Below are positions 1-21,290 of a stretch of DNA of 64,000 nucleotides, one piece after another (the first letter of the stretch is position 1; every line of letters starts with the position of its first letter). The stretch covers positions 9,983 through 73,982 of the forward strand of contig QPMI01000131.1 of assembly GCA_004431415.1 (NCBI GenBank), read 5' to 3'. Source of the DNA: Cyanophora paradoxa CCMP329. Lineage: Eukaryota; Plantae; Glaucophyta. Position numbers and translations under genes: made by a program. The notes below the pieces were generated by a model. The model saw nothing but the letters and a program-made list of their open reading frames with translations. It had not been told where the DNA came from and made no database searches.

Positions 1-1516
1 GTCACATCGACTCTCATGGTCGGGGCATTTATATATACCAGCGGATATATTCGTATATATCTTGTTCTCAGTGGGAAACCTATATAGAAAACATCGTTTA
101 TTGCAAGCGGAAAGCCCCCGTTATATGATACATCCCCAGAATTATGTGCATTATTTATATTCTCACATACAAACATTCTATTCACACCTTCATACTTGAT
201 ATATGACCATGAAACCCATCTTGCGATGTTGCAACATTGAAAGTCTTAATAAACGCAGTTGTTATACCTGACCCATAAGCAATTATCGAAGCGATCTCAT
301 ATGTATATGGGAATGCTATTTGCAGATATTCTGTTGGCGTTTCCCATACTCCGTTAATTGCGGATGCATTCGCTTCCCATCCAGTTAATGATGGGCGGGC
401 TTTAAATGCCTCCTTTCCAAATTTCGCAGACGAAGCGGTAAACGCATTATCAGGTAGAAGATACCAATTAGCATCAATGGGAGGTATGTTATTAAGAGTG
501 GATGATACATACGATCGGACAGGGTTCTTAATCTCATAGTTTGTTACCAGCAAATCACAGAGTCTATTAATCATATTGTCGTTTGCTTCTATATACGATT
601 CGGTCGCAGCTATCATTTCAGGAATCTTAGAGGTATCATCAAGGGAGTTCAATATATCTTTCGGAAGCGGCACAGAGAGTCTATAATATCTTGCATATCC
701 TTGGTCATCGTTATATGGTAGAAACTCATGCATCTTTTCAAGAGCAGACAGTTCACTTGCAGCCATAAGCATATTGATTAATGGACTTCCAGAGGTCGAA
801 GCAATCCATGAGAGAATACCCCAGGTATTCACGTTCTCATAAGGATAACCGACGGTTGATGCATCGGTTTCGTTAACCTCACCACAAGAGATGCTAATAA
901 CTATAATGTCGTCGTCGTTATCATATATCTTTTTCGCGTGACTGTAACCACAAACGCTTGGGTTATTGTTACCAGATATTGCACCATCAATTAGACACAT
1001 GCCGTCGTAATCGACAGGAGCGAAATATGTAGGAGCGGCAGAAGTAGAACGTGCTGCAATCTTACTTGGTATGGTCTTGTAATCGTTGTCGTTTGCTATA
1101 AAAATGGGTTTCATGCTTACAGTGTCGAACGTCGTAATCACCACGTCTTTCAGGGAATCTTTTATGAGAGCTTCCCCAGTCACAGAGAGAATGGCGGTCT
1201 CTAATGGTGTTACGTCGTATTTCGTATTAAAAAGGGCATTCTCTATGATGTTTCGTGGATTCGCAAAGATCAGAGGGAGATGATAGAGGTAAGTATCGTG
1301 AAGGTCGGTTGCAGTTAGTTTAGGTTCATTTGGAAATTCGGGGTTTTTCACATTGAGACCGATTGCAATAATACCGCCTGTGGATGTTCCACTTACGAGA
1401 TCTACAAGATCGATCACGCGTTTACCGGTTCTTGTTTCGATCTCTTTTAGCAATCTTGTTATGATGATACCACGAGCGCCACCTCCGGACAAAGATAATA
1501 CGACTTTTAGGGGCAT
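1..1516 (-). CDS. Patatin-like phospholipase fused to a C-terminal F5/8 type C (discoidin) domain; frameshifted near 212, 3' end beyond the window
   Basis: Patatin motifs GGGARG, GTSTG, SAAPTYF and DGA. The C-terminus (FTASS...W...EYLQIAF...IKTFNVATSQDG) continues after a 1-nt shift as WSYIKYEG...TRYIRIYPLVYINAPTMRVDV, a typical discoidin ending, and runs off position 1. Confidence 0.88.
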
Positions 1517-1564: not shown

Positions 1565-4500
1565 ATGAGTTTCAATTATCCAGCAAATTTACAGACAGTA
1601 TCAGGTGGTGGTAAAGGGAACCCAAAACATGTGAACTTTGATAATATCACCATTAAAGGGTCGGCTTCTATTGATCAGAGCGCGGATAAACCCTCGAAAA
1701 CTCATCCCCGGGTTCATGCTTTATCGGTGAACCAAACGGATCCTGATAAAGAAGATGTTAGCATTGCTTTCAGTTTGGGCAATGTTAAAAAAAACGCTGT
1801 TGCAGAGATCAAGGCAACCAGAAGGAGACCACGGAAACTTAAAACCAGTGGAACGCATCCCGATATTCCCACACGATTCGATAGCGGACGTTTGGTTTTC
1901 AACGTCCAGGATGAGAAGGGAGTTCATCGTAGCGGTTTGAGAATTTATAATGAAGGATCAAATACGATTGCACAAATTCCCCAGATTTTACAGGTAGCCC
2001 CACATGGCGAAGAGAATCAGATTCGCCACACCAACAGTATTTATCCGAAGGACATCGTCGAAAATGCAGAAACTAATGCACTGTTTGGTTTCACTCTTCC
2101 ACAGGATACTTCCAAAGAAAAAGATTCAATCACGGTCGACAGTAGCCCCAGTCAACCAGTAGCCATTCATTTACACCCCGACCTTGTCGAAATGGATAGG
2201 CATTTACTACCTTTGAAAACAAATACCAAAGACCTTGGTATTAGAACCCGACAGTGGCGAAATATTCACGGTAGCAACGTGTATGCAAACGGTGAGAAAC
2301 TTGTAAGCGAGAAAACTATCAGAGAAATATTCGAACATTACGGACCTGTTCCGGTTCCGTTTCCTCTACCATGGGATCCGCCAGATCTTACACCAAAGAA
2401 GCAACCAGGAAGAGAGTATACAGCAGAAGAGAACGTTGCATTTGGGCAACATATCGTGAGTTGGGAAAAAGTTCGAAACAAACCAGTATTTACAGTGTAT
2501 CAACCACCAACAGAAGAGCTTCTTGCACCAGATGTGAACGTTATACCTCTTGAAGATCGACGATTCGAAGAAGATAATGAGTTACCTGATGGTTTCGATC
2601 CAAACCTTATAACATACGATCGCTACGAACCATATGATGAACAGCTTTTACCTGATGGATTCGCACCCGATCTATTTGATTTCATTGTTGATTGGGAGGA
2701 CATCCGAAATAAACCCCAAACATATCCACCTGATCCCCATGCTCACGATTGGGACGAAATAGAGAACAAACCTGATAGATTCCCACCTGTGGATCATAGA
2801 CACGATTGGGAGGATATCGATGGAATACCAGAAGAATTTCCACCAGAAGACCATAGACACACTTGGGATCAAATCGATGCACCAGAAGAGTTTCCACCAG
2901 CACCACATAGACACAATTGGAACCAAATCGACCAGCAACCTACATTCGCATCAGCAGGTGATGCTGTCAATGATGGGCTACATGGTGTGAGTCTCTATAA
3001 GAATATAGACACAGAGGAAAGATTAATGTTAGATACGTATTACGTCAATCGTCACGGAATAAATGCAGGCACCACAATGGAAGGCGAATTATATATCAGA
3101 CCACCTACACGAGTTAATTTAGTTGCAGCAGGTGGAGGTATTGGAGTAATGCAGAATAAACCGGGCATCTATCTAACAAGTTACTACCCAGATGACATCC
3201 CGATGACAGTTACATTACCACCTATCCCATCTCTTCCAGCCGATCCAATTAATTTTGTAGACAAAGATGCAGCAATCCAAATTAACGTTACTGATGTAAG
3301 CGCTCTTGATGGATCAAGACCAAAGTTAATATTTAGTCGAGATCGGCTCTTACCTGATGATTTAATTGGAGATCGAGACGATTATAAGCAATGTGAGATA
3401 GGGTGGATTAAAACCAATTATAATGATGTTGATAAGCAAGGGGTCTTGGAAATCAATCAGAGAGCAGCAGCAAAAAACATACACAACGAAACAATATCAC
3501 GAGTGGTCACAGAGGATTATTTAGAAAACAAGAATTACATAGATGGAACCGAATTAGCTACGGCTTTGCTTCCTTTGGCGGCAGTTTCAACTGTCCAATC
3601 TTGGTTAGGTAACTACCTTCCCCTCACAGGTGGAACCATAACAGGTAATCTGACAGTCAATGATACATTGAGTGTAGGTAAAGAGATACACCTAAGTGGA
3701 AATCAGTTCGAGAGAGGATCCCAAGATTTCTCTACATATAATCCAAGGGAAATAGCAGATTGCCTACTTCACTTTAACGCAAACTCTGATAATTGGAAGA
3801 GTGGAGCGCTTGTTTATGAACTCAAAAATTACGCAAGGGGCGGCTCAGTTTGGAATTATATTAATGTAGTTAACACTCTTGTTAGTTACGGCAGTGTTAC
3901 TTTCAGCTTCCTCGGTCCAAATAGTAAAAAGTTCTACCAGGTGGCTACCACAAACACATTTTCATTCATCAATTATCAATATCAAACTTCTACTCTTTAT
4001 GATACTATTCCTTTCAGCGGAATTACGGTCTCATTTGTCATTCGATTTAAACCAAGCGTTCCAAATGAAACAGTTTTACGAATCGACGGCTCAACACATG
4101 TGAATGGAAACAATCTCAGTTGGTTGATTACTAAAACAAGCGGGTATTTGAATGTCAATAAGAATGGCTACGATTTAGTGAGCATTCCAATATCAACAAC
4201 AGAAGGGAATTCTTGGACAATGTTCGATATTCGAGTAACAAGCACAACTGTTCATTTTGGTGTAAATGGAAAACATAGAGATACAATATCTGTTCCTGCC
4301 GATTCAAGATATCCACGCCAAGATGTCAATAAAATACATGTGGGTGATAGCGTTTCAAAATTCGATTTATGCGAACTCCTTTGTTATGGTAGAACCCTTT
4401 CAGATACAGAACTACAAAATATTAGATGGTATTTACAGCAAAAATACGGTTTTCCGGAAGACCCTTTAAATCCATATCCATTGGATAACAACAAGATTCT

Positions 4501-7500
4501 TGTTAGAACTAATGAGTTTAAAGTAACCGGCACCCTCTTGGCGACGAACGTTATTATGACTACATCAACCTCAGGCACAGTATCGACTATGAGCCTTCAA
4601 GAAAAAACAAATAGCTTGGAAGAGAGTATTTATACACAACAAGAGGCAATTACAGCACTCCAAACTGAGGATGCCGCACTTGCAACAAGAATAAATAACA
4701 TAGAGAGTGATTATACTTCTTCTAATGTGGTTCAAGAATGGACAGCACCTTTAACGGCATCGAATGTAGTTCAAGAGTGGATAGCACCATTGACTGCATC
4801 GAATGTAGTTCAGGAATGGATTGGACCTTTAACAGCATCGAATGTGGTTCAAGAGTGGATTGCGCCATTAACTGCATCGAATGTGGTTCAAGAGTGGATA
4901 GCACCTTTAACAGCATCAAATGTGGTTCAGGAATGGATATCAGATTACTTACCTCTCACAGGAGGGACACTGTCAAGTAATCTTACCATCTCGGGTAATC
5001 TCAAAGTGTCAAGCAACATTCAATTAGGAACTCATGGGACGGTTTTAGATGTGACTTATGACACACCCTATTATCCTATCACATCCAACACTGACCCTGC
5101 ATTTACAATTCCGAATTGTCTTATAGCTGCAAAACCATCTGGCTATGCCCATCTACAAAATGGGCATGGAACAACGATCACCAACCGAGCAACATTGGCT
5201 GTTCCATTCATTCCACAATTTTTTATGACTGGTTCCTCACGGGAATCATACTATAAAATAAATCCATTACTAAATAACCAACTTACTTTGAAAGCATCTG
5301 ACAACCCCAATTCATCCATTCATTTGTTTTCAAACAGAAATGATACTGTGGATTGGAGTGAGGGAATAACAATATTTAGTGTGTGTAGTGTGAGGTCACT
5401 TACATTGGTCCATGCAGTGTTTGGCGTGTTTAATTATAATGTGCATGAAGTAAGGTATGGCACACACATAGATTGGTTTGTGAACCCACCTGTTTGCAAA
5501 TGGGGCATGAATAGATATGTCCATGTTGCTGATGGGGTTAACATGCAATATGGAACACCAACATATAGTAATCTCCCAACTGTCTATATGCCTTATGAGG
5601 AATATGCAAATTACAAATTTGCATACTGGGACACAACCATTACTTCAAACAGCATATCATATTCAATGAATGGGAAGCATTTAGGAACTGTTGCTGGTAA
5701 CTGGCTTCCACCATCATCATTTAATAATTTAGGACCTGCAAATATTGGGGGAGAGTTTGCAGAACTACTTGTTTTCAATAGAGCCTTGACCGAGATTGAG
5801 AAGCAACAGGTGAGGTATTATATTCAGCAGATGTATGGATTTCCTATAACTCAACCTCTTTACTATCCTGATAATATGCGAATATCAGCAAATTATCTCT
5901 ATCTAAACAACTTACACATTGGTTCAAATGCTATCATTCCAAACTATACCACATCAAATGTGGTTCAAGGTTGGATACAGAACCACACACCTGCGTGGTC
6001 AAATATCACAGATAAACCATTAACTTTTGCTCATGATGCTCATTCTCACACAAAGTCAGAGATAACAGATTTCGCCATACTCATTTATGGCGGACATCAC
6101 AGATAACCGTTAACATTTGCGCCTGATACTCATTCTCACACAAAATCACAATAACAGATTTCGCCATTCTCATTTATGGAGGACATCACAGACAAACCAT
6201 TAACGTTTACTCCTGCTATTCACACTCACACAAGTCAGAGATAACAGATTTGCCACACTCATTATGGGCAGATCTCACAGACAAACGTTAACATTTACTC
6301 CTACTACTCACACTACACAAATCACAAATAACAGATTTCGCCCATTCTCACACAAGTCAGAGATAACAGATTTGCCCACACTCATTTATGGCAGACCTCA
6401 CAGACAAACCGTTAACATTTACTCCTACTACTCACACTCACACAAAATCACAAATAACAGATTTTGCCCATTCTCATACGAAGTCAGAGATTACAGATTT
6501 TGCACACACCCATTTATGGGCAGATCTCACAGACAAACCGCTCACGTTTACTCCTTCTGCGCACACTCACACAAAGTCTCAAATTACAGATTTCGCCCAT
6601 TCTCATACAAAGTCAGAGATAACAGACTTTGCCCACACTCATTTATGGAATGACATCACAGACAAACCATCAACGTTTGCCCCTTCTGCGCACACTCATG
6701 ATTACTTGCCTCTCACAGGAGGAACAATTTCCTCAAATCTTACGATTTCATCCAACTTGAATGTTATAGGAAAAATTCAAATTGGAGACAAAAATACAAA
6801 CATTGATGTATACTATGACGCACCCTATTATCCTGTTACTTCTAATACAGACCCCGCTTTTGCCATACCAGATTGCCTCTTAACAATAAGATTAGATGTT
6901 GTCCCTGTCGGCATAAACATCAGTCACGCCTTTATTGCAAATAGAGCAACTACGGCAATTCCCTTTATTTCCGGGGTAACCTTCCCATGGTCAGGATACA
7001 ACACAATAACTCAATTGAGATCTGATTACAATAACCGAAACATTGCCCAACAACCTACTTATTCATATACAAGCCGGGAATTTGGAATGCCGTATCCCGT
7101 AACTGTGGATTGGTCAAAAGGTATCACCATCTTCTTTGCAGGTTCTTATAGATTTTGGGGACCGTTGGTAGATCTCTTAAATTTTAGTTCACCAGATGGA
7201 ACTAATAAAGTATCCTTTGGGACAACAGGTAGCAGTATGGGTATACATTCTTATACAAGCAATGGTGTGACTTACCCAGCAGCACACTTAAATTATCCCA
7301 CATCGTATTCTGAGTTGTCGCCGAATCATTGGGACTTTACAGTTTCTTCAAATGTCTGCACTTTCGGATTTAACGGACAAGATTTAGGCACAGTCATTAC
7401 AGAAGTGGATTATCTTCCACCTTCCACTTTTAGTAGGATGGGTGTTGCCTATTTCATTACGGCAGTAGGGGAATATATTATATTCAACAGAGCATTGACA

Positions 7501-9560
7501 TTTGATGAAAGGCAAAAAGTGAGATATTATATGCAAGATTATTTTGGCTTTCCAAAAAAGCAAACAATCGTTATTCCTGATAATCTACGCATTTCTGCTG
7601 AAAATGTTCATATTAGAAATTTAATCGTTTCTTCAAATGCAAGCATTCCAAACTATACCACATCAAATGTGGTTCAAGGTTGGATACAGAACCACACACC
7701 TGCGTGGTCAAATATCACAGACAAACCGTTAACGTTTGCTCCTGATGTTCATACTCACACAAAAGACCAAATATCAGACTTTTCCCATTCTCATTTATGG
7801 AATGACATCACAGACAAACCGTTAACCTTTGCTCCTGCTGCCCATTCTCATTTATGGAACGACATCACCGATAAACCATTAACCTTTGCTCCTGATGCTC
7901 ATTCTCATGCATGGACAACCATTACAGGTAAACCATTAACCTTTGCTCCTGATGCTCACACTCACACAAAGTCTCAAATAACAGACTTCGCCCACAATCA
8001 TTTATGGGCGGACATCACAGACAAACCGTTAGCGTTCACTCCTACTACTCACACTCACACAAAGTCTCAAATTACTGATTTTGCCCACACTCATTTATGG
8101 GCGGACATCACAGACAAACCGTTAACATTTGCTCCTGCTGCTCACTCTCATTTATGGGCGGACATCACAGACAAACCATTAACATTTGCACCTGCTGCTC
8201 ATACTCATGATTGGATAGGTATTACAAATAAACCTTTGCTGTTTCCGCCCGATGCTCATACACACCCTTGGAGTAGTATAACAGAAAAACCATTAACATT
8301 TCCGGCAACAGCTCACACTCATTTATGGAATGATATTACAGACAAACCAACATTTGCAACTGTTGCGACAACCGGAAATTATGATGATTTAATTAACAAG
8401 CCAACATACACAGCGCCCACAAATTTTGACGCTACAAGTATTATTTCCACAGATCGCACAGGTGATTGGAGAAATTACAACGGAGGAATATTGACAGGGA
8501 CACAAATACTTGGGCGAACACATGGGCTGCTTCTGATGAAGATTGTAGTAGCTGTAAAATGTATTGGAATGTCCCAACAGGAATGAAATCTTGTTATATC
8601 TATTATGCTTGTCATTACAATTGTAGATACTTTGATGTGGTGGGAATTTATCCTCCAACAACTGTGTATACATATTTACGAGTAAATGCCTATTCTACTG
8701 CAATCGACCCATCAAAGGAATTCAAACAGTATGTTGGAATAAATTGTGAAGGACTAACCAAAGTTGGTGTTCATGGACAGAAAGGAAGAATTTATTTACC
8801 CGGTCCAATTGCTGTTGGATGGAGCAAAAACCCTGCTGTAACTTCACACAGTGGTTACTGTCATTGGGATAATATCTTCGGAAAACCAACAGCTTCAACA
8901 TCTGTCGGTCCTCACTCACACAGCAAAGCAGATATCACAGATTTTGCACATACTCACACAAAGGCAAATATTACAGATTTTGCCCATACTCACACTAAAT
9001 CAGAAATCTCAGATTTGCCTTCTTTTGATCCATTCACAGCCAATACGATCACAGCAAATAATACTATGTATGTAGGATCGGGTTCAATAGTAACTCCTGC
9101 ATCACCCACAAACCAAGAAACATGGTTCTTCCACAATTCCGCAAACTTTTATGATAAAACACTGCTCTGTCGTGGAAATGCTTATGCAAGAGCATTTTAT
9201 GCGATGAATGCAGGAACCACAAACACAATCAGCCAAGTTCCATCTTGGTATGATATAGAAAGACGTTTCAAATCAGGAAAATATCAAGCCACAAGTGGTG
9301 TTATAAGCGCGGGTCAAACAACACAGCATGCATATGTTTTATATTGGGACCCACCTTTTTACACTCAGACACCTGTTGTAAATGCCACACTTCAAGGAAC
9401 TCCTGCAACAAACCCAGGGGATGTAGATTTTAGAATTGGAATCTCAAACTCCACAGCTAACTACACAACAATCTATGTGACATTCATAGCATCCCCTACT
9501 CTATCTGAAAGTCGAAGTATCACATGCACTATCCATTGGACATGTCATGGTATACCATAA
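1565..9560 (+). CDS. Giant modular virion fibre/adhesin (~2,660 aa if joined), split in this assembly into ORFs 1565-6106, 6388-8586 and 8466-9560
   Basis: HxHxWxDITDKP / HTHTKSxITDF phage-tail-repeat-like motifs run across all three ORFs. Three YLPLTGGT(I/L)xxNLT starts each precede a ConA/LamG-like module ending in ELLxFNRALT..E.Q.VRYY.QQ.YG. Breaks are single-base losses in repeats (6075-6390) and near 8500. Confidence 0.8.
4715..4941 (+). repeat. 39-bp (13-aa) coding tandem repeat x6, TASNVVQEWIAPL
   Basis: Visible in both the DNA and the 1513-aa translation. Confidence 0.95.
5995..6700 (+). repeat. Array of His-rich fibre shaft repeats (WADITDKPLTF / HTHTKSQITDFA); a second array lies at ~7705-8350
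   Basis: Repeated acagacaaaccgttaac and cactcacacaaagtc units. Confidence 0.9.
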
Positions 9561-9609: not shown

Positions 9610-10455
9610 ATGGGTGAATACAACCGAGTCCAATTACCGGTTTACGCATTGGGTGCGCCCGCAATTCATTTCAGACAACATGAAGTATCCGATGAGATTC
9701 GTGGTATGGAATCAACAGAACGCGCAAACTCAGGAAATGCGTTCGATAAAAACAGTGTGATTCGCGTAAAAGAACTACGAGCCGATAAGAATTCGGGTGT
9801 GGTAAAAACAACTCAATTATTGGTTACAAATGCGAATTTTCAATCAGCAAACGGAGAACCCGATGCGTATGGTGTAGATATCAAAGCATTCCAATTCGAC
9901 AATACGCGAGCCGCCGCCGTTATCCGATCAGGAGGCGCTGTTATTGGTGGTGGATGCCGAGTATCCGGAATGCTTGGCTCTTCTGCTGCGTTTAACGATA
10001 TTCCGGACACCTTACCTGAACATGCAGATAATCCCCAACGAATGCGTATGTTTCTTCCATGTGGAGATTCCCCATATGCTTTTGCTATCATACGAGCAAA
10101 TGTAAATATAAATGATGCTACCCAACCCCAAGGTATTGACGGACCTTGGAAAATGGCTGATCAACTTTTACCGAAAGCGATTTACTCCATGTGTCGCTCT
10201 CAGAATGGAGGTGTAGAAGGATATACATTCATTGTTCAAGCGGTAGGTCATGGAGGGCGTGGATGGGTTATAAGAAATCCTGCAACACAACCCAACACTT
10301 TTGATTTTTGGGCATCTGAGGTTGGAGGTTATGATATTATGATTTATGGATATCGTAATGATGAGGCGGCATGGGCTGTTGCTAACTGCATAAATCCCGA
10401 TGCTCAACTATCGAATTTCTATAATGAACCATACCCCGAAGATCCCGTCCCATAA
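9610..10455 (+). CDS. Hypothetical viral protein, 281 aa, paralog of 10475-11320; possibly fibre-associated
   Basis: Clean ORF. Shares GxESTE, ELRxDxNSGVVKTTxLLVTNANF, RSGGAxIGxGxRVxG, LPxxIYxxCR and IxxYxxRND with its neighbour. Confidence 0.75.
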   Translation: MGEYNRVQLPVYALGAPAIHFRQHEVSDEIRGMESTERANSGNAFDKNSVIRVKELRADKNSGVVKTTQLLVTNANFQSANGEPDAYGVDIKAFQFDNTRAAAVIRSGGAVIGGGCRVSGMLGSSAAFNDIPDTLPEHADNPQRMRMFLPCGDSPYAFAIIRANVNINDATQPQGIDGPWKMADQLLPKAIYSMCRSQNGGVEGYTFIVQAVGHGGRGWVIRNPATQPNTFDFWASEVGGYDIMIYGYRNDEAAWAVANCINPDAQLSNFYNEPYPEDPVP

Positions 10456-10474
10456 TTATGTTTCGATATATTAA

Positions 10475-11320
10475 ATGGCTGCACCTGCACCACCTGAACG
10501 CATCTTAACTGCGCAACTATCGTTAGCTGCGCCCGCAAACCACGTATTACAGCATGCTATTATCGATAATATCGATGGTCTCGAATCCACAGAAATCGCA
10601 CCAACTCTCAATACCTTCGGTGATACTCATATGCTGAGACTGAGAGAGTTGCGATGTGACACCAACAGTGGAGTGGTGAAAACAACGAGACTTCTTGTAA
10701 CAAATGCGAACTTCAACGCTCATTATGGAGATCCCGACAGTTACAATGATGATAATAAGGTTACCAACTTTGCTTACGAAGCAAGAAGGGGCGCAATTAA
10801 ATGTAGATCCGGAGGCGCTTATATTGGGGACGGACTAAGAGTTGGTGGTATCATTGGAGCGCCTCTAATCGTAAATGACCAACCCAATCCTGATGATGAA
10901 AACACGAGAATTAGAACGTATTGCCCGGGTATGAATGAACCTTACATTATTAAAATAAACACGATTATAATAAACCTGCAAACTGCCGTAATTGACATAA
11001 TAGAACCGCTGGGAAACCATTACAGATATACCGAAAAGCTACCTGCGGATATTTATGCATTATGTAGGAGAACCGATGTAGCAAGACCACGTATTACAGT
11101 TCAAGTAGTCCCCGTCGATAATTTTGGTCTTGCTTTCCATTCATTGCCTCTTTTGGATACGCAAGATGATGAATATATAATTAGGGCAACACAACAAGGA
11201 ACATTCACGGTTATTATGTATGCCGAAAGAAACGATGCAATCGCAAGAGGAAACCGCTATGGTCAATATCTAACCACAAATCTCTATAATCCCATCGGCG
11301 GTAGCGATCCGCTACCATAA
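10475..11320 (+). CDS. Hypothetical viral protein, 281 aa, paralog of 9610-10455
   Basis: Clean ORF starting 19 bp after its paralog, with the same conserved blocks. Confidence 0.75.
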   Translation: MAAPAPPERILTAQLSLAAPANHVLQHAIIDNIDGLESTEIAPTLNTFGDTHMLRLRELRCDTNSGVVKTTRLLVTNANFNAHYGDPDSYNDDNKVTNFAYEARRGAIKCRSGGAYIGDGLRVGGIIGAPLIVNDQPNPDDENTRIRTYCPGMNEPYIIKINTIIINLQTAVIDIIEPLGNHYRYTEKLPADIYALCRRTDVARPRITVQVVPVDNFGLAFHSLPLLDTQDDEYIIRATQQGTFTVIMYAERNDAIARGNRYGQYLTTNLYNPIGGSDPLP

Positions 11321-11341: not shown

Positions 11342-11578
11342 ATGGATGAAAAAACAAGGAGATTTATTGAGTCTGCGATAATGGTTCATGGACTTGATAA
11401 GTTTGATTACACCGAAACTGTCTATAAAAAGGCGCAAGAGAAGGTATCTGTGAGATGCCTGCAATGTAATAAAGTCTTTCAGACTTATGGATTTAACCAT
11501 ATAAAGGGGTCAGGATGTAGACAGTGTTCTAAGAAACACTCTCATGCATACAGAAAAAGACTACATGGGGAATCGTAA
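11342..11578 (+). CDS. Small zinc-ribbon protein (DUF723-like module seen in viral endonucleases)
   Basis: FIESAIMVHGLDKFDY...VRCLQCNKVFQ...NHIKGSGCRQC pattern. No nuclease domain attached. Confidence 0.7.
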   Translation: MDEKTRRFIESAIMVHGLDKFDYTETVYKKAQEKVSVRCLQCNKVFQTYGFNHIKGSGCRQCSKKHSHAYRKRLHGES

Positions 11579-11798: not shown

Positions 11799-12197
11799 AT
11801 GAATCATCGCGGTTCCCATGTAATGTTAGATTACAAGTTCAATCATCCATTGATGGTGGGATTGGAAAACTTGGAGACCACAACAACGTGGTTAATGCAA
11901 TTTTTACAATCTATTATACAAGAGCAAGGTATCCGAGTTGTTCACAAGCATTGCGAGATTTTCGATGGTGGTGTTTCGCCACCGGGTTTTGCGATGGTAT
12001 TACTTCTTGATGAGAGCCATTGCACCGCTCATTGTTACTCTGACCAAGGAATGTTAGCGATTGATGTATTCACTTGCGGAACCGAAGCGCAAAGTAAGAC
12101 CTCCGTAATATCTAAATTGATAGATGAGAGAATAACAGAGATCTTTTCAGGGTTGGAGAAAGCGGAGAAGCAGATAGCAGCGCGATTTCCGAGTTAA
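11799..12197 (+). CDS. speD: S-adenosylmethionine decarboxylase proenzyme, short prokaryote-type (pyruvoyl-dependent)
   Basis: GSHVMLD N-terminus, PPGFAMVLLLDESHCTAH with the E|S self-cleavage site, and AIDVFTCG. Confidence 0.88.
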   Translation: MNHRGSHVMLDYKFNHPLMVGLENLETTTTWLMQFLQSIIQEQGIRVVHKHCEIFDGGVSPPGFAMVLLLDESHCTAHCYSDQGMLAIDVFTCGTEAQSKTSVISKLIDERITEIFSGLEKAEKQIAARFPS

Positions 12198-12245
12198 TCA
12201 CACTGAGATTTTGAAGAAATATAACATGTCTTATTGAATATCGTC

Positions 12246-12522
12246 AGGTGTAACAGGTGTAACAGGTAAATCCCAAACTTCGCTCCTAGGGAGGCCAAAA
12301 ACCCAAAACTTTGGGATTTACCTGTTACACCTGTTACACCTTGGGATTCACCTGTTACATCTATCAAACAAAGCATTAATATATTCGATTCCTTACATTG
12401 ATTATAGTGTCATGTAACAGGTGTAACAGGTGTTTCCCAAACTTTCCTCATAGGAGATGAAAAATCCAAAACTTTGGGATTTACCTGTTACACCCGTTAC
12501 ACCTTGGGATTCACCTGTTACA
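12246..12522. repeat. Two tandem palindromic cassettes built from 9-bp TGTAACAGG iterons
   Basis: Perfect 32-bp inverted arms at 12246-12277 and 12310-12341 around a 32-nt spacer. A slightly diverged second copy at ~12413-12522. Confidence 0.92.
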
Positions 12523-12601
12523 CATTGATTATCGACTGTTTAATTGGACATGTTACACTTGAAACACAATTTTGATACAGTAAAAAACAGAATCCAATCT
12601 T

Positions 12602-12908
12602 ATCGATTGTTTAATTGGACATAATGCAACTCTGGGGTCATTTTTGATACAGTAGAAATTTAACAGGAATCTTATCGATTGTTTAATTGGACGTAATGCA
12701 ACTCTGGGGTCATTTTTGTTTCCCGAAATCTCATCGATTGTTTAATTGGACATAATGCAACTCTGGGGTCATTTTTGATACAGTAGAAATTTAACAGGAA
12801 TCTTATCGATTGTTTAATTGGACGTAATGCAACTCTGGGGTCATTTTTGTTTCCCGAAATCTCATCGATTGTTTAATTGGACATAATGCAACTCTGGGGT
12901 CATTTTTG
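12602..12908. repeat. Tandem array: 45-bp core x5 with two alternating spacers (131-bp higher-order period)
   Basis: ATCGATTGTTTAATTGGAC(A/G)TAATGCAACTCTGGGGTCATTTTTG at 12602, 12674, 12733, 12805 and 12864. Degenerate partial copy near 12531. Confidence 0.95.
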
Positions 12909-13210
12909 TTTTACGATACAATATGGGCGGTGGACTACTTCAATCGTTAATATATCATAAATTTATGTTCCTTCAATCGAGATTATATCAAATTTGCATA
13001 AAATACATATTAATCGCGTTTATATCAATTAATCAATCGAGAAATACGTATTTTACGATTGAATTTAATTGAATTTATTTAAAATTTGTATAAATTTCAT
13101 AAAATCATAATTTAATCGATATCATTCCAATTAATTTAATCGAGTTTATTTAAATTTAATTGATTTAATTAAAAAGTTTGATTAATTTTTTAAATCTTTT
13201 CGATTAATTT

Positions 13211-13317
13211 ACACATAAATAAAAACAAATTTTAATCCTGAGCGACAGAGCGAAATGAGCGCGAAGCGCGAATTGAGCGATAGAGCGAGGGATTAAAATT
13301 TGTTTTTATTTATGTGT
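13211..13317 (+). other. Fold-back hairpin; putative covalently closed viral genome terminus
   Basis: Perfect 28-bp inverted repeat (13211-13238 / 13290-13317) enclosing a 51-nt symmetric, imperfectly paired segment with a GCGC-GAA-GCGC apex. Sits exactly at the AT/GC boundary. Confidence 0.8.
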
Positions 13318-16300
13318 GGGGGCGGAGTCGGGCAGCTGCCGGGAGCGGGTGGGAGCCGGCCTATTTAGGTTGGAGAGGCTCGGAGACCAGCCCTTCGATT
13401 CGCACGAGGAGCCCGCTGGAATTCGGCGAACGTGGGATGCGTACTCGACCCAGCGGCAGGCCGTTATGGAGAGGCCCAGCTCGCGATGGAGCTGTTCGGA
13501 GCCGCAATATTTTGGGTGGGGGCAGAATTGGAATTCGAGTCTGCGTTCACGCCAGGCAGGGTCGAGTTCAAGAGCCGATAGGCCGGGGTCGCGTGTGGAA
13601 AGTCCATCGTATGGGGTGAGGCAGTAATGGACGAGTTCCACCCCATAATTATACTCTGAGTCTCGGGGGCAGTTAGGGTCCGCGTCGGGGTCCTCGGGAG
13701 CCAGTTCGTCCGGGTTTTCGTCCGGGAGAGGGGTTTCCCGACGACGCGACCAACTAGGCCTTGGGACGTCCAGACAAAGTCACCAATTTTGAGTCCCGCA
13801 AGGACGGCGTCGGCTTGGAGAGAGCGACGGATGTCTGGGATAGAGGGCGGCGGGGGCATGGGGTATCGGGGGAGGAAGGGGGACTGGATGGAAGGGCGGG
13901 GAAGAGAGAGTTCTTCGCGGACCGCGTCCCACCAGTATGTAGTATGCCGGGACACGACCGTGACTCCAGAGGAGGGACCAATCAGCTAGTGAGCCGTCGG
14001 AGGACGTAATGTCACGGATGGTGAGGAGGCCGCAGCGATAGAGGCGCTGGCCGGCTCGTTGGAGGGTGAGGGGCGTCAATTGTGATGATATAATGTATTC
14101 TCGTCGAAGGTGGGACCGTCGGGAGGGGAGGCCGTGCGTCCAGGAATCGCATGTTGTGAGGATGTGGTGGGAGGTGGAAGTCAGGTCTGCCGTGATGGCG
14201 AGCGTAATATTTTTCTGTAGTGTAAGGGGCCCCGAAGGAAGGTTCGGATATTCATGTGGGAGGAGAGGGAGCCCGTACCGGGCCTGGGTGTCGAGGACGC
14301 GTTGTCGGTATATTTGGCCGTAGAGTGATGATGTGTGGGAGGCGAGTTCCTGGCGGAGGCGCTCGTCGACGCACTGCTGTTGGCGTTGGATGACTGCTAT
14401 TGAGGGAAGGCGATAGATGGAGGAGAATGCAGCCGTGGAGACGGACTGGGCCAGGTTGGCAGTGTGTTTGGCCGCGGTGAGCCAAACAGCGTCGAGGGAC
14501 TGGCATTGGGATGGCGTTAGGGTCATGATGCGGAGGGGGTATGACAGTTTAGGGAAGAGAACCCGGTGTAATATCACTTGGAATTCGTGAACGGTAATCT
14601 TTTTCGTGGCTAGGATCGAGATTGCAGATTGGAGCTGGGATTTGAGTAGGCGGACTTGGTGGGTCCAGGACAGGTTCGCAGTAAACTGGACGCCGAGGAC
14701 GCGGAAGGGCGTTGTGGGGGAGAGGATGTGGCCAACCTCAGCTCTGGAATCGCCAACGCCGACATAGTATTTGCTCTTGACCGGCTCTTCGGATCGGGGG
14801 GGTTTCCAGTGAAAAATTTCCGTCTTTTTGGCGTTCAAGTTCATGCCATGGATATGTAGAAATTCGGACAGCCAGTCAAGCATATGTTGGAGGCCCTGAG
14901 CCGAGCTGGCAAGCATGGTGGTGTCGTCGGCGTATGCAAGCACAGAGACTTTGGGGCAGGGACCGGCGGGGAAGTAGAGGGGTTCGCCAGGGCATGGTGG
15001 GCGGGGGAACGGGGGCGGGTCGGATCAGATCGGTGCGGCCCAAGCTGGTAGCCGAAATTGGACTGAGTCGCTCGTTCTTCAATGGCGGTGAGAGCGGCGT
15101 CGAAGAAAATGCGCCAGTGGAGGGGGCTTCGATGCCACCTTGGGGAGGCCACAGGGACTTGAAAATATTCAGTGCGGCCGTGGGGGTAAGGATGCACGCC
15201 GTGCGGTGTTGAGCTGCTTTTTTGTGGAGGGCTATATATCGTTTCCCTTCAGGATGGAGGTGGAGTTGGATACGGTTAAGGCTGAGCTCTTGGCTATGCC
15301 AGGAGACACTGTCGTAGGCGCTGGCGATATCCCCAGGCCGCCAAAGATTGGCTTTTTGAACTGGTGCGCGTCCTCGAGGGAGGATCGGAGGGCGTAGAGG
15401 ACAGGGTCGGTAGATTCGCGGCGACAGAAACCATAATTACGGCCGCGTAGAATGTTATGTGTATCAATGCGGTCTTCCATGCGGTGGGTCAGGAGGCCCG
15501 TGACCAGCTTCCAGGTGACTTCTTGAAGGGTGATGGGGCGGAGATCGGCGAGATCTGCTGAATTATCTCGTTTCGGGATAGCGTAGACTTGGCCGCGAAG
15601 TGCGTGGTCGGGCACGTGGCCGAGAAGAGTGGATTGAACTAGGGCTCGGATGGCGTCACGCGAGGTGGTCCAGTGGGCCGCGGACTCGAAGCTGTTTATC
15701 TCGTCTGTAGAGTGTGAGGCGGCTAAGGTCTGGCGTTCCGTCTTGGAGAGGCGGAGGGGGGACCAGAGCATTTTAAGCATTCCGTTCGTGAGGCCGGAGG
15801 GACCGCCAGCGCCATTGGACAGGGACGAGATGAGGCGATCGAGTTCGGGGTCCTCTGGCATGGCCATTAGCCCGTCCCAGACGGCGGGGGCGAAGTGGGA
15901 AAGGGGTCGGTACTGGCGTTTCCAAAATCTGCCCAACCAGGCGCCGTTTTCAATGACCTCGAATTTCGTAGCTATGGCATCCAGGTTTGGGGCGGCCTTG
16001 CGGAGTCGCCAGAAATTTTTGAAGTGATCCAGATGTGCGCGTTTAATTTCAGTGGGATCAGTGAGCACGTCGGGGAGTCCCGCTGCCGTGCGGGTAAGAT
16101 ATAGGCGAGGGGCGGATCGGAAGCGGGAGAGAAGGAGTTGAATAGCCCGACCCATGCTTCGACAGTGGGACAGGAGGTGGCGGCGGGTGTCAATATTGCG
16201 AGCGATGTCGGCTTCGGTGTATGCGCGGCGATGATTGTCCAGGGCGGCCCGCGCCTGTAAATGCCACATGCTGAGTTGAGCATGGTACTCGGCGATTTCA

Positions 16301-17780
16301 GATCCTGTAATGATACCATTCTCGAACTCAGGGTAATTAGGAGGGTCGGGGAAAGCGAGGAGGGAGGGGCAAAATGCCAGCGTGGTGTCCGAGCCCGCAG
16401 ATTTTCGGATGTCTGTCACGTCTTTGGGAAGGTCCCGGAAAACAGCCCGAATAGTTTCGTCAGGCGGGTGGTCTGTGGAACCTTGGCGCGCCCAGTCGTT
16501 TAGGGCCTGTCCGACGCGGCCAACAAGTTGTTCGTCGTCAGCGTCCAGCGCAGACAAGTGGTTGAATTTAGCCATATCGCCCTGGGCGGCTACTCGGTGT
16601 TGGAGGACTTTTGCAGTAGAGAATTCTTTAGCGTGAGCGACGGACTTGATACTCTGGGCGATTGCGCAGAGGAGGGAGCGGTGGGATTTCGTGGCGCGGC
16701 GGGCGTAGTCGGGGCTGTTTTCGGGAGTGAGAAGGAGCTGGATATACCGCTGACCGTGTTTATTGAGAAAGGCTTCGACAGCGAGCTTGAAAGCAAGCCG
16801 GATTGGTGCAGGCTGGGCGGCATAGTTGAAGAGAGGGGGAGAGGCTGGGGTCGGGGCTGGCGGGGGGCGGTCGGGGGGCAGAGAGCACTCCTTCGGTTGT
16901 GAAAGTCGCCAGTACTGGGAAGTGATCGGCTGAGAGCAGGGGGAGGGTCGTCCAGGGACAGCCAGTGTACGAGTGCCCAGCGATCGGGCCGCTAGGGTGG
17001 GGGAGGCGAGGGCATAGTCGAGGCGGGCGGCGTTCAGGAGAGGGCGGTGGCCTTGCTCGTCGATGAAGTCTGCGTGGTGTGAGATGTGCGTGAAATCGCC
17101 GGGGTACCGGTGTCGATGAGGCCCCAGGTCGCTCGGAGGAGGGTCCAGATTTCCGCGTAGGAGTTCGGGGGTGTAGTTTCGGTGCGCCGGTTGCCCCCGG
17201 TGATCCGGTCGTTGCACGGAGAGTATGTGCTATTCATATCGCCGAGTACCAGGAGATGTGTCTGCCAGTCAGGCTCGTGGAGGTCAGGTGCGACCTTCGC
17301 GGTCAGGTATTCGGTGAGGTCGTGGAGCTCTTTTTGCAAATTGTCGTGCCCGCAGTCCGGTACATAGAGTGAGAGGACAATGAGGCGCTCGCGCGTGCGC
17401 GGGAAGTCAAACCGAGCGCCGGCTACTCGGCCGTCAAACGCGTAATCCGCCTGGCGGTGCGCTGCATAGCTTGCTGAGATCCACAGCGGGGAGCCGGCGG
17501 TGCCAGGACGGGCCGCGGAGGGAGGGGAGTAGACAAGGTAGCTAGATTTATGGCGGCGGACTGCCGTCTTAATCAGGTGATCGCGGATATTGGGCGGAAA
17601 GGGCTTCGAGGGGGGGCGGTCAACGGGGACCATGTCGACCTCTTGAAGAGCAACGAAGTGACAGTCCCAATCACGGCGGCCATAGTCGATTGCGCTGATA
17701 AATTTAGTTGCAATATTGTTGCCGCTCGTCTTCCCTCCAAGCGGCGAATATTCCACGTGAGGGCGCGGAGGTTCAGCTTC
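13318..17780 (-). pseudogene. LINE ORF2: apurinic endonuclease plus reverse transcriptase, with several frameshifts
   Basis: APE motifs LTWNIRRL, ALQE, SLYVP, LGDMNS and RLDYALAS. RT motifs GPSG, IPK...RPITL, NYGF, DIASAYDSV, LSPLHW and YADD (14923-14934), followed by FRVLGV. Confidence 0.9.
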
Positions 17781-18979
17781 GCATTAGCCGCGTCCGGGGG
17801 ATGTGCTAGGACGGGGATCTGGAGCACATCACGATGGCGGCGAGCGTCAATACGGTCAGCGGTGTAGAGGGAGGGAGGGTATAGCGTTAGAAGGGACGAG
17901 GCCGCCGTGACTAGTGTCGGGGAGGAGAGGGCAGCGGCGGCGGTAGCGACTGCAGCGGCCGTAGCTGTGCTGGGCTCAATGTCCGCAAGAGCGACGGGGA
18001 CAAGGGCGACGAGGAGAGCACAAAGGAGGAGGCGCGCGGGAAGAGGGGCCGGGCGGCTGAAGGTCCGTTGGACTTGTGGGGCGCGGCGCGCAGGCCGGCC
18101 CAGGAGTTCGAGACCGGCGTCATGCGGCGCAGCGTCCGTGGCGCCGGCGTCAGCGGGGCCAGCGCTGGCGTGCACGTAGGCACTGGCGCGGAAGCTAACT
18201 GCGAGGTACGCGGCCGTGCGCGTGGCTGGTACGCGTCCGGATCCGTACGCGGGGCTCGTACGACAGCTCTCGGCGTCATGCAGCGCGGCGTCCGCGGCCG
18301 AGCTCGAGGCGCCGGCGTTGGCGGGGCTAGCACTAGCGTGGGCGCCGGAGCTAGCTGCGAAACCTGCAGTGGTAGTATCGGTGCTATAGCTAGGCGCCGG
18401 CACGCGACCGTACGCAGGGTTGGTGGTACTAGCTATAGTGCAGCTATTAAAGCGCCAATCGCGGATTGCGGAGGTATTGGGCCGCTTCGAATCATTGCCC
18501 GACTCACCGGTCGCATGAATAGAAAAAACTGTTCGCGTTGGAGTTTTTTGACGGCACGCGGCGGGGGTACCGGTAGGCGCAGTTTCGTCTGGGGCCCTGA
18601 GACGTTCCGACCGGAAGGGGAGGCTCCACCGGCCACTGCAGTAGGCGGCGGCGCTGATGTGGCTTCCGTGCTCCAGTCCAGCGATCAGGTTCTGGAGCAT
18701 GCCGTAGCGCGGTCTAGCGAACGTGGTCCAGGAGGTGCTCCAGATGTAGACACGGCGACTGAGCTGCGAAAGTACTTGCGCGGCCTGCTGGATGCCGAGG
18801 CGAACAGCGCGGCGTGGAGCGGCAGCGACAGTAGCATCAGTACGGGGATTGGCCTCTCGCTGCGGGCCTGGAGACGCGCTCGACGGGCGGGGCGTTGCAG
18901 GCGGACCTCCGGGACACTTCTGCACACCGAGGTTTGTTCTAGGGGTCGGACAGTCGGCTCGGGAGGCCGACAGCGTTCT

Positions 18980-21290
18980 GGGGAGGCCGACAGCGTTCTG
19001 CAGGTCGAACGGGGGCGAGACAGGCGGCGCGATGGGGCCCGGCGGCGGCTTCACTTCAGGTCCAGGTCCGTCAGCACGGGCGCGGCGCCGGGCAGCGGGG
19101 CGGCCGATAGCGTCCTGCAGGTCGCGCGGCGCGGGCGGAGGCGGGACAGGCTGCAGGCTGGGGCCCGTCGGCTGCTTCACTTCAGGTCCAGGTCCGTCAG
19201 CACGGGCGCGGCGCCGGGCAGTGCGGCGGCCGACAGCGTCCTGCAGGTCGCGCGGCGCGGACGGAGGCGAGACAGGCGGCGCGCTGGGGCTCGGCGGCGG
19301 CTTCTCTTCAGGTACAGGTCCGTCAGTCCGGGCTCGGCGCCGGGCAGCGGGGCGGCCGACAGCGTCCTGCAGGTCTCGCGGCGCGCGAGGAGGCGAGGCG
19401 CGGGGCGCGCTGGGGTTCGGCGGCGGATTCACGTCAGGTCCAGGTCCGTCAGCACGGGCGCGGCGCCGAGAAGTGCGGCGGCCGACAGCGTCCTGCAGGT
19501 CGCGCTGCGCGGGCGGAGGCGAGGCGCGGGGCGCGCTGGGGCTCGGCGGCGGCTTCACTTGAGGTCCAGGTCCGTCAGCACGGGCGCGGTGCCGGGCAGC
19601 GGGGCGACCGACAGTGTTCTGCAGGTCGCGCGGCGCGGGCGGAGGCGAGACAGGCGGCGCGCTGGGGCTCGGCGGCGGCTTCACTTGAGGTCCAGGTCCG
19701 TCAGCCCGGGCGCGGCGCCGGGCAGCGGGGAGGCCGACAGCGTCCTGCAGGTCGCGCGGCGCGGGCGGAGGCGAGACAGGCGCGCTGGGGCTCGGCGGCG
19801 GCTCCACTTGAGGTCCAGGTCCGTCAGCACGGGCGCGGCGCCGGGCAGCGGGGCGGCCGACAGCGTTCTGCAGGTCGCGCTGCGCGGGCGGAGGCGAGAC
19901 AGGCGGCGCGCTGGGGCTCGGCGGCGGCTCCACTTGAGGGCCAGGTCCGTCAGTCCGGGCGCGGTGCCGGGCAGCGGGGCGGCCGACAGCGTCCTGCAGG
20001 TCGCGCTGCGCGGGCGGAGGCGAGACAGGCGGCGCGCTGGGGCTCGGCGGCGGCTTCACTTGAGGGCCAGGTCCGACAGCACAGGCGCGGCGCCAAGCAG
20101 CGGGGCGGCCGACAGCGTCCTGCAGGTCGCGCGGCGCGGGCGGAGGCGAGGCGCGGGGCGCGCTGGGGCTCGGCGGCGGCTTCAATTGAGGTCCAGGTCC
20201 GTCAGTCCGGGCGCGGTGCCGGGCAGCGGGGCGACCGACAGTGTTCTGCAGGTCGCGCGGCGCGAGCGGAGGCGAGACAGGCGGCGCGCTGGGGCTCGGC
20301 GGCGGCTTCACTTGAGGTCCAGGTCCGACAGCACGGGCGCGGCGCCAAGCAGCGGGGCGGCCGACAGCGTCCTGCAGGTCTCGCGGCGCGGGCGGAGGCG
20401 AGGCGCGGGGCGCCCTGGGGCTCGGCGGCGGCTTCAATTGAGGTCCAGGTCCGTCAGCAAGGGCGCGGCGCCAAGCAGCGGGGCGGCCGACAGCGTCCTG
20501 CAGGTCGCGCGGCGCGGGCGGAGGCGAGGCGCGGGGCGCGCTGGGGCTCGGCGGCGGCTCCACTTGAGGTCCAGGTCCGTCAGCACGGGCGCAGTGCCGG
20601 GCAGCGGGGCGACCGACAGTGTTCTGCAGGTCGCGCGGCGCGGGCGGGGGCGAGACAGGCGGCGCGCTGGGGCTCGGCGGCGGCTTCACTTCAGGTCCAG
20701 GTCCGTCAGTCCGGGGGCGGTGCTGGGCAGTGGGGCGGCCGACAGCGTTCTGCAGGTCTCGCGGCGCGGGCGAAGGCGAGACAGGCGGCGCGCTGGAGCT
20801 CGGCGGCGGCTTCACTTGAGGTCCAGGTCCGTCAGCACGGGCGCGGCGCCGGGCAGCGGGGCGGCCGACAGCGTCCTGCAGGTCTCGCGGCGCGGGCGGA
20901 GGCGAGGCACGGGGCGCGCTGGGGCTCGGTGGCGGATTCACTTCAGGTCCAGGTCCGTCAGTCCGGGGGCGGTGCTGGGCAGCGGGGCGGCCGACAGCGT
21001 TCTGCAGGTCTCGCGGCGCGGGCGGAGGCGAGGCGCGGGGCGCGCTGGGGCTCGGCGGCGGCTTCACTTGAGGGCCAGGTCCGACAGCACGGGCGCGGCG
21101 CCAAGCAGCGGGGCGGCCGACAGCGTCCTGCAGGTCGCGCAGCGCGGGTGGGGGCGAGGCGCGGGGCGCGCTGGGGCTCAGCGGCGGCTTCACTTGAGGT
21201 CCAGGTCCGTCAGCACGGGCGCGGTGCCGGGCAGCGAAGGGGCCGACAGCGTCTTGCAGGTCGCGTGGCGCGGGAGGGGGCGAGGCGCGC
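18980..21290. repeat. 126-bp GC-rich minisatellite, ~19 copies
   Basis: The 42-aa unit (DSVLQV...) occurs 19 times in the + ORF, and as RDLQDAVGRP... in the - ORF. Unit starts are spaced 126 bp apart (19071, 19197, 19323). Confidence 0.95.

What the first reader, a model, noticed from the sequence alone, without database searches (positions are those of the whole stretch)
13211..13317. Putative viral hairpin telomere built as a tandem G.A mismatch zipper with a GCGAAGC cap
Seen: a perfect 28-bp stem encloses T-GA-GC-GA-CA-GA-GC-GA-AAT-GA-GCGC-[GAA]-GCGC-GA-ATT-GA-GC-GA-TA-GA-GC-GA-G. When folded, every GA faces a GA (five tandem GA/GA mismatches), separated by 2-4 bp paired blocks, with only one C.A and one T.G defect. 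Known: tandem sheared G.A pairs are stable in DNA, d(GCGAAGC) is an exceptionally stable mini-hairpin, and pox-, asfar- and chloroviruses end in incompletely paired flip/flop hairpins. Inferred: this is the closed end of a linear virus genome, with an architecture I do not recognise from described termini. It would be strand-asymmetric, because the complement gives weak TC/TC mismatches. Standard palindrome finders would see only an unpaired loop.
Basis: partly seen in the sequence, partly recalled or inferred. Interest (0 to 1): 0.92.

Follow-up and report, generated by a model that had tools for sequence, protein, structure and literature searches.

The report
GA-zipper hairpin ending an integrated virus
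A 107-base palindrome forms the exact end of a repeated, virus-like element inserted in a GC-rich host genome, and its core of G-A mismatches is predicted to fold well only on the strand whose 3' end points outward, so it likely lets that strand fold back and prime its own copying.

Summary
In detail: a perfect 28-bp stem encloses five tandem GA/GA steps, one T.G, one C.A and a GCGAAGC cap. Shuffles rarely or never match it. It is not a free telomere here. Contigs of public runs show it at about 7-9 times single-copy depth. Its outer base abuts at least three different flanks, two of which share a 6-bp duplication (GACATT), and in this window it cuts into a LINE. So it is the tip of an integrated, virus-like element. 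Capsid, integrase and polymerase genes were not found in the window, so the virus class is untested. The closest known case is the terminal palindromes of Halocafeteria virophages and polinton-like viruses (2026 preprint). This scan has noted palindromic virus tips, and GA-zipper hairpins, on other DNA. The GA/GCGAAGC module also recurs in phage and prokaryote repeats. What seems new is the two together: a strand-asymmetric fold on the 3'-outward strand. That predicts self-priming and a single end orientation rather than flip/flop. The function is inferred and untested.

The parts
13211..13238 (+). Inner 28-nt arm of the terminal palindrome (18% G+C)
13239..13289 (+). 51-nt purine-rich (72.5%) loop that folds as five tandem GA/GA steps with 2-4 bp blocks, one T.G and one C.A; no variant listed in it in the three runs that cover it
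   Evidence: table 3
13259..13269 (+). GCGC-GAA-GCGC apex holding the GCGAAGC mini-hairpin (13261-13267)
   Evidence: Tm 76.5 C for GCGAAGC in PMC13037366 (passages)
13290..13317 (+). Outer 28-nt arm; its last base (T13317) is the last base of the element and is the 3' end of the GA strand
   Evidence: junctions table 7
12921..13210 (.). AT-rich (20% G+C) subterminal tract, variable among copies (e.g. 13167, 13176, 13184)
12596..12916 (.). Subterminal tandem array, 5 copies of a 59-nt unit at 59/72-nt spacing
12233..12523 (.). Two palindromic units about 163 nt apart with 33-35-nt arms; presumed part of the terminal repeat
11799..12197 (+). Last gene of the element: S-adenosylmethionine decarboxylase-like
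   Evidence: Pfam PF02675 E 3e-12; phrog_3125
11342..11578 (+). Short zinc-finger/endonuclease-like ORF
   Evidence: PHROG endonuclease families E 1e-8 to 7e-7; DUF4379 below cut-off
9610..11320 (+). Two paralogous 281-aa genes (38% identical), probably fibre-like; very few relatives
   Evidence: (low-confidence model, pLDDT 39)
1565..9560 (+). Three large fibre-like ORFs (1513, 732, 364 aa) with phage-tail-like His/Thr repeats
182..1516 (-). Patatin-like phospholipase gene; the element probably continues beyond the window start
   Evidence: PF01734 E 1.6e-23; best relatives 35% identical
13318..17783 (-). Multi-copy non-LTR retroelement (RT; upstream endonuclease-like ORF by recalled motifs) that the element interrupts at 13317/13318; its far end was not mapped
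   Evidence: RVT_1; other copies run on past 13318 (table 7)

Best explanation
The palindrome is the outermost 107 bases of a repeated virus-like element that was likely inserted by a retroviral-type integrase, and its G-A-rich loop is predicted to make the outward-pointing 3' strand snap back so that T13317 would prime copying of the element. Shown: the palindrome ends at the element boundary, occurs at several junctions, and interrupts a LINE here. Inferred: (1) the element carries this palindrome inverted at both ends; (2) the open duplex end is what the integrase joins, leaving a 6-bp duplication; (3) once an end is melted or single-stranded, the GA strand folds through sheared G.A pairs and a GCGAAGC cap, while the complementary TC strand folds less well; (4) the fold-back 3'-OH primes DNA synthesis, in the manner proposed for hairpin-ended virophages and known for parvoviruses. 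Because only one strand is built to fold, the ends should exist in one orientation, not as flip and flop.
For: Boundary: loose ends put other DNA right after the outer arm. One flank lies behind 13318 (same letters in X1, X2 and X17), one lies before 13209 (all 4 runs), and a further unlike one appears in X5 (2 contigs, agreement 0.65). Read with the adjoining window letters, the first two both give GACATT; the chance of such a match among 3-4 junctions is 0.0007-0.0025. 6-bp duplications are typical of rve integrases (PMC12220804 and PMC8547959, passages). Other LINE copies run on past 13318 (three loose ends, in all 4 runs), so the LINE was the target. Depth: loop contig versus a single-copy contig is 645/71.4, 713.4/85.5 and 239.4/36.1, i.e. 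9.0, 8.3 and 6.6. Orientation: in X5 one contig runs unbroken from 13203 through the inner arm and GA loop to 13294, and shown records account for all depth over 13241-13284. Strand: the GA strand is the plus strand, whose 3' end is the element's end. Chemistry: NMR shows sheared G.A 'CGAG blocks' (PMC10085684, passages); GCGAAGC melts at 76.5 C and resists exonuclease (PMC13037366, passages). Precedent: palindromes next to duplications in Halocafeteria virophages and PLVs, with a hairpin-priming model (section 7 read). Streptomyces 3' telomere strands carry sheared-G.A hairpins (PMC4513846, passages).
Against: No integrase, capsid, ATPase or polymerase gene was found among the element's ORFs in the window, and no whole genome is held, so the element's class and its other end were not seen. 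The two GACATT junctions could flank a lone palindrome instead of a whole element. The duplication rests on one pair of junctions, read from a table of loose ends. Contig depth is only a rough guide to copy number, by the tool's own warning. The contig over the window's own junction (X5 record 30) has 29 and 30 letters on the two sides, just short of the tool's 31-letter rule. X5 record 26 (depth 196) is an inner-arm-like piece with 4 differences and two clipped letters where the loop should start; it could be a flop or fold-back form, or a second end type, and its letters were not shown. Standard energies give only a 2.7 kcal/mol strand difference and no signal for the loop alone. Two of the five GA steps lack the favourable context. 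No priming has been shown for any such palindrome in the preprint section I read.
Confidence: 0.55

Rival explanations
1. One reading: the free virus has covalently closed, incompletely paired hairpin telomeres of the pox/asfar/chlorovirus type, and integration captured one after it was opened at the base of the stem.
For: Size and design resemble the 102-bp incompletely paired hairpin of Kaumoebavirus (PMC7909422, passages). Tandem repeats lie just inside the end. X5 record 26 and unexplained depth on the inner arm (residual 159-361 over 13186-13240) could be fold-back junctions. In vaccinia the mismatches matter for packaging (PMC8956199, abstract).
Against: Flip/flop ends need both strands to fold, but the complement has TC/TC mismatches. 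All loop depth in X5 lies on records in the window's orientation, attached to the inner flank. A 6-bp duplication fits joining of an open duplex end. No loose end matching the reverse complement of the inner flank is listed behind the outer arm.
Confidence: 0.2
2. The fold is a strand-specific recognition or protection cap, for an integrase, a packaging or terminal protein, or against exonucleases, and it does not prime synthesis.
For: Streptomyces Tap binds sheared-G.A hairpins on the 3' telomere strand without the hairpin acting as primer (PMC4513846, passages). Mini-hairpins resist exonucleases and mark primase sites (PMC13037366, passages). The same module occurs inside prokaryotic repeats where no end needs priming.
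Against: The perfect 28-bp stem ends flush at the terminal base and leaves a paired 3'-OH facing the element, which is primer geometry.
Confidence: 0.15
3. The 107-nt palindrome is a separate mini-element or scar with 28-bp inverted ends that merely sits at the element's edge.
For: The GACATT pair could flank a lone palindrome. Similar modules form dispersed repeats in one archaeal genome (10 of the 18 loci).
Against: In X5 the loop is reached only from the element's own AT-rich flank (record 27), at a depth similar to that flank (239 vs 311). No contig spanning flank-palindrome-flank is among the records shown (8 per run).
Confidence: 0.07
4. Assembly or adapter artefact.
For: The window differs from the public contigs by several single-base gaps nearby (table 4), so it is not error-free.
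Against: The loop is present letter for letter in contigs of runs X1 and X5 and with one difference in X2. X1, X2 and X5 carry three different study codes.
Confidence: 0.02

Closest known systems
Terminal palindromes of endogenous virophages (subtypes 1, 2, 5, 6) and PLV subtype 4 of Halocafeteria seosinensis (bioRxiv 10.64898/2026.07.28.741278; section 7 and passages read; figures and supplements not seen)
   Same: Palindrome at the outer end of an integrated virus, adjacent to a target-site duplication; hairpin priming proposed there too.
   Different: Theirs are described simply as palindromes (52 nt in subtype 5). Here there is a 28-bp stem around a 51-nt loop that pairs mainly by tandem G.A and so favours one strand. 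Their sequences were not visible to me, so a GA-rich loop there is not excluded.
Polinton/Maverick, mavirus-like virophage and PLV insertions by rve integrase (PMC12220804, PMC8547959; passages)
   Same: 6-bp duplication, low G+C against the host, several copies, insertion into another mobile element.
   Different: Marker genes are not in the window. The ends here read 5'-AC...GT-3', whereas I recall 5'-AG for Polintons (no call).
Incompletely paired flip/flop hairpin telomeres of poxviruses, ASFV, chloroviruses and Kaumoebavirus (PMC7909422 and PMC11814242, passages; PMC8956199, abstract)
   Same: About 100-nt imperfect hairpin outside tandem repeats at the genome end.
   Different: Those are closed ends of free genomes in two complementary isoforms. 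This one is seen open, integrated, and so far in one orientation, with systematic GA/GA mismatches.
Streptomyces typical telomeres and parvovirus 3' rabbit ears (PMC4513846, passages)
   Same: Sheared G.A pairs in hairpins on the 3'-terminal strand of a linear replicon.
   Different: There a single G.A closes each triloop and synthesis is protein-primed (Streptomyces). Here five tandem steps lie in one long stem.
GCGNAGC mini-hairpins and CGAG-block hairpins (PMC13037366, PMC10085684; passages)
   Same: Identical cap and the same C-GA-G/T-GA-G blocks.
   Different: Known from phage single-strand origins, promoters and a human promoter; not described at virus ends in the passages I saw.

Membership tests
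Polinton / virophage / polinton-like virus (integrated) | Double jelly-roll capsid, packaging ATPase | not testable with these tools
   Not among the 8 element ORFs scanned; rest of the element lies outside the window and no genome is held
Polinton / virophage / polinton-like virus (integrated) | rve integrase or tyrosine recombinase; replicase type | not testable with these tools
   No such hit in the window's part of the element
Polinton / virophage / polinton-like virus (integrated) | 5-6 bp target-site duplication | tested here: met
   GACATT on both sides of one pair of junctions; chance 0.0007-0.0025; not testable for the window's own copy
Polinton / virophage / polinton-like virus (integrated) | Terminal inverted repeats at both ends | tested here: inconclusive
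   The same arm lies next to both copies of the duplication, but a lone palindrome would look alike; the other end was not seen
Polinton / virophage / polinton-like virus (integrated) | Length 14-40 kb; G+C below the host's | tested here: inconclusive
   At least 13.3 kb, full length unknown; 40% G+C vs 61% in the next kb and up to 83% further on
Pox/asfar/chlorovirus hairpin telomere | Incompletely paired terminal hairpin outside tandem repeats | tested here: met
Pox/asfar/chlorovirus hairpin telomere | End of a free linear genome, not joined to host DNA | tested here: not met
   Joined to a LINE in the window and to other flanks in public contigs; a free form is not excluded
Pox/asfar/chlorovirus hairpin telomere | Flip and flop isoforms | tested here: inconclusive
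   One orientation in X5 record 27; record 26 unresolved
Pox/asfar/chlorovirus hairpin telomere | Covalent closure | not testable with these tools
   Only assembled contigs were served, no raw reads
GCGNAGC mini-hairpin | GC-GNA-GC sequence at the apex | tested here: met
   GCGAAGC at 13261-13267 centred on the fold
Sheared tandem G.A (CGAG-block) hairpin | Symmetric pyrimidine-GA-purine steps | tested here: inconclusive
   3 of 5 steps meet it; sheared geometry itself needs NMR
Rfam RNA families | Score above gathering threshold | tested here: not met
   Only generic microRNA-hairpin hits far below threshold

The most novel reading that the evidence does not exclude
An undescribed integrating DNA virus uses non-Watson-Crick chemistry to choose its priming strand. 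Both 3' ends carry a sheared-G.A zipper and both 5' ends its weak TC complement, so the genome has self-priming hairpin ends in one fixed orientation, with no flip/flop and no terminal protein, yet also presents open ends to an integrase.
Probability: 0.3. Interest if true: 0.75.

Novelty: new variant of a known kind. Interest (0 to 1): 0.5.

Why it matters
How virophages and polinton-like viruses without a protein-primed polymerase copy their ends is an open question. The hairpin-priming model (2026 preprint) is untested, and a perfect palindrome cannot say which strand folds. This end can: its design favours the 3'-outward strand, so it gives a direct test with two oligonucleotides and a yes/no prediction for long reads (one orientation vs flip/flop). 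It would also be a natural example of a run of tandem sheared G.A pairs at a replicon end. If it is only another palindromic virus tip that uses a common mini-hairpin module, it is a modest addition.

Tried and rejected
No relatives of the end were found. The core 15-mer hits about 320 viral stretches; none of the 120 loci scanned had a zipper. The exact zipper pattern gave 0 in metagenome contigs and 0 in prokaryote genomes. A looser pattern gave 12 viral loci, none folding. Another gave 28 loci with 30 matches, the best of them simple tandem repeats. Protein routes did not place the virus. The last gene found 2 distant viral loci (not followed beyond an ORF list for one). Patatin, the 281-aa family and the 1513-aa protein found none. 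The 281-aa family has 2 close and, by profile, 6 further weak relatives without names. Its model was poor (pLDDT 39) and its fold hits, mostly tail or fibre-like and weak, are not relied on. Atlas neighbours were unnamed phage clusters with a recognition value below the tool's mark. The window's proteins are not in the collection by exact sequence. The hairpin as the LINE's 3' end was rejected because other LINE copies continue past 13318. An RNA family was rejected. Run X17 has no cover over 13241-13284; this might reflect sequencing failure through a stable fold, but lack of cover is no evidence. Residual-depth arithmetic in X5 shows extra records on the inner arm that I could not resolve into flop, fold-back or a second end type (8 of 20 records were shown). 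Host genes gave almost no Pfam signal (1 of 67 ORFs, below cut-off), so the host is called a GC-rich eukaryote by inference only. No paper on a GA-zipper virus end turned up in my searches; the library lacks most subscription journals, and preprint supplements were closed.

Full report
Observation. Bases 13211-13238 pair perfectly with 13290-13317, and pairing stops just outside. The 51-nt loop folds on its own centre into five tandem GA/GA steps, 12 Watson-Crick pairs, one T.G, one C.A and a GCGC-GAA-GCGC apex. The arm occurs nowhere else in the window, and a GA-aware scan of both strands finds only this site. Among 200,000 dinucleotide shuffles of the loop none had fewer than 5 defects, against 2 observed. 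With the four GAGCGA hexamers left in place and only the other letters shuffled, 11 of 200,000 did as well, so the fold is more than a by-product of direct repeats. Two cautions apply. ViennaRNA sees nothing special in the loop alone (z 0.66) and only 2.7 kcal/mol between the strands. Only three of the five steps have the symmetric pyrimidine-GA-purine context that NMR work links to sheared pairs (PMC10085684, passages); the block around the C.A mismatch may be a loose internal loop.

Setting. To the left lie 13.2 kb at about 40% G+C, densely coded: a patatin, three fibre-like proteins with phage-tail repeats, two paralogous 281-aa proteins, a short nuclease-like ORF and an S-adenosylmethionine decarboxylase. 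Then come palindromic units, a 59/72-nt tandem array and a 20% G+C tract. To the right, from 13318, lies a non-LTR retroelement on the minus strand, and further on DNA of up to 83% G+C. That the host is a eukaryote is inferred from these retroelements and the lack of recognisable long genes. No whole genome is held.

Other copies. Twenty public runs of one coded organism hold most of the element's last 3.8 kb. I laid 4 of them; all are assembled contigs. The loop contig has 9.0, 8.3 and 6.6 times the depth of a single-copy contig in X1, X2 and X5; the tool warns that depth is only a rough guide. No variant is listed inside the loop, while the AT-rich tract and the LINE vary. The loose ends are the key result. 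Other DNA follows the outer arm at one junction (X1, X2, X17), precedes the arm at another (all four runs), and a further unlike flank appears in X5. Read with the adjoining matched letters, the first two both give GACATT next to the arm, a 6-bp duplication with a chance of 0.0007-0.0025. Three other loose ends, in all four runs, show the LINE running on past 13318 in its other copies. So the palindrome's last base is the element's last base, the element was inserted at several sites, and here it broke a LINE. The contig over the window's own junction (X5 record 30) has 29 and 30 letters on the two sides, just under the tool's bridging rule.

Orientation. In X5 one contig runs without a difference from 13203 through the inner arm and the GA loop to 13294, and the records shown account for all depth over the loop. 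This fits a single orientation. Against it, record 26 (depth 196) is an inner-arm-like piece with four differences and two clipped letters where the loop should begin, and more depth on the inner arm is unexplained. It may be a flop or fold-back form, or a second end type. Only 8 of 20 records were shown, and assemblers drop variants, so the question is open.

Mechanism. Six-base duplications are typical of rve integrases of Polintons, mavirus and many PLVs (PMC12220804, PMC8547959; passages). Such an enzyme would join an open duplex end. At that end the plus strand is the one whose 3' terminus points outward, and it is the GA strand. Folded back, it would leave T13317 paired and facing the element, which is primer geometry. 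The cap is a known very stable, exonuclease-resistant mini-hairpin (PMC13037366, passages). The complement would have to fold through TC/TC mismatches. I therefore infer a self-priming 3' hairpin in one orientation (0.55). The rivals are a closed flip/flop telomere opened at integration (0.2), a recognition or protection cap as on Streptomyces 3' telomere strands (0.15; PMC4513846, passages), a separate mini-element or scar (0.07), and artefact (0.02). The boundary, the repetition and one duplication are shown; folding, priming, the integrase and the second end are inferred.

Comparison. The closest described case is the terminal palindromes next to duplications in Halocafeteria virophages and one PLV subtype, for which hairpin priming was proposed but not tested (bioRxiv 10.64898/2026.07.28.741278, section 7 read; figures and supplements not seen). 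Membership in that group cannot be tested, since no capsid, ATPase, integrase or replicase gene is in view. The closed-telomere families (PMC7909422, PMC11814242, PMC12085832, PMC12747079, passages; PMC8956199, abstract) share the size and the imperfect pairing but not the integrated, open state. One more preprint (10.64898/2026.10.13.758929, passages) added nothing on end structure.

How singular is the design? A generalised pattern gave 112 matches in 106 viral loci, 60 of them distinct. The outer spacers were complementary in 6 of 60 against 0.95 expected (29 of 100,000 permutations), and fully paired in 2 of 60 against 0.18. One record has five GA steps in an intergenic region. In prokaryote genomes the same 15-nt cap gave 20 matches in 18 loci of 8 genomes; none had fully complementary spacer triplets, but 13 extended into longer stems, all from two genomes. 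Earlier notes of this scan, unchecked, report palindromic tips of integrated viruses and GA-zipper hairpins on other DNA. I found no case, in the scans or in ten literature searches, of the two together.

Verdict. A real, non-random feature, and the end of an integrated virus-like element: a new variant of a recently described kind of end. Its value is that it makes the hairpin-priming model strand-specific and testable. Interest 0.5.

Noticed in passing
window 12233-12523: Two related palindromic units about 163 nt apart with 33-35-nt arms and internal 9-nt repeats, between the last gene and the tandem array; possible binding sites or a small inserted element (one X2 loose end at 12248 has other DNA before it).
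   Followed up: partly
window 11553, 11779, 13729, 15002-15330: Public contigs carry single extra letters at these places in most runs (table 4), so several ORF breaks in the window may be assembly errors.
   Followed up: no
window 13295 and mirror 13233: In X5 the outer arm splits into two variants after 13294 (depth 154 and 104), and the inner-arm record starts at 13203, 30 bases before the mirror position; this could be a paired change in both arms, but it was not resolved.
   Followed up: partly
L243 1486-1538 (G001): An intergenic hairpin in an unrelated 138-kb viral record has five GA/GA steps and a GCGAAGC cap, with a second GA hairpin 40 nt on; origin-like, not at a record end.
   Followed up: partly
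L245-L262: The same 15-nt cap sits inside longer stems in a dispersed repeat of one Halobacteria genome (10 loci) and a Clostridia genome (2 loci, 3 matches).
   Followed up: partly
window 19010-21311: About 18 copies of a 126-bp GC-rich tandem repeat inside a long open frame upstream of the LINE's coding region.
   Followed up: no
window 25832-27433: A second reverse transcriptase with weak RNase H hits, probably an LTR or DIRS-type element.
   Followed up: no
window 31671-34897: Three copies of a roughly 1485-bp unit, each holding a 128-bp duplication.
   Followed up: no
window 11799-12197: A virus-like element ending in an S-adenosylmethionine decarboxylase gene, a polyamine-pathway enzyme; my one literature search did not link it to polinton-like viruses.
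   Followed up: partly
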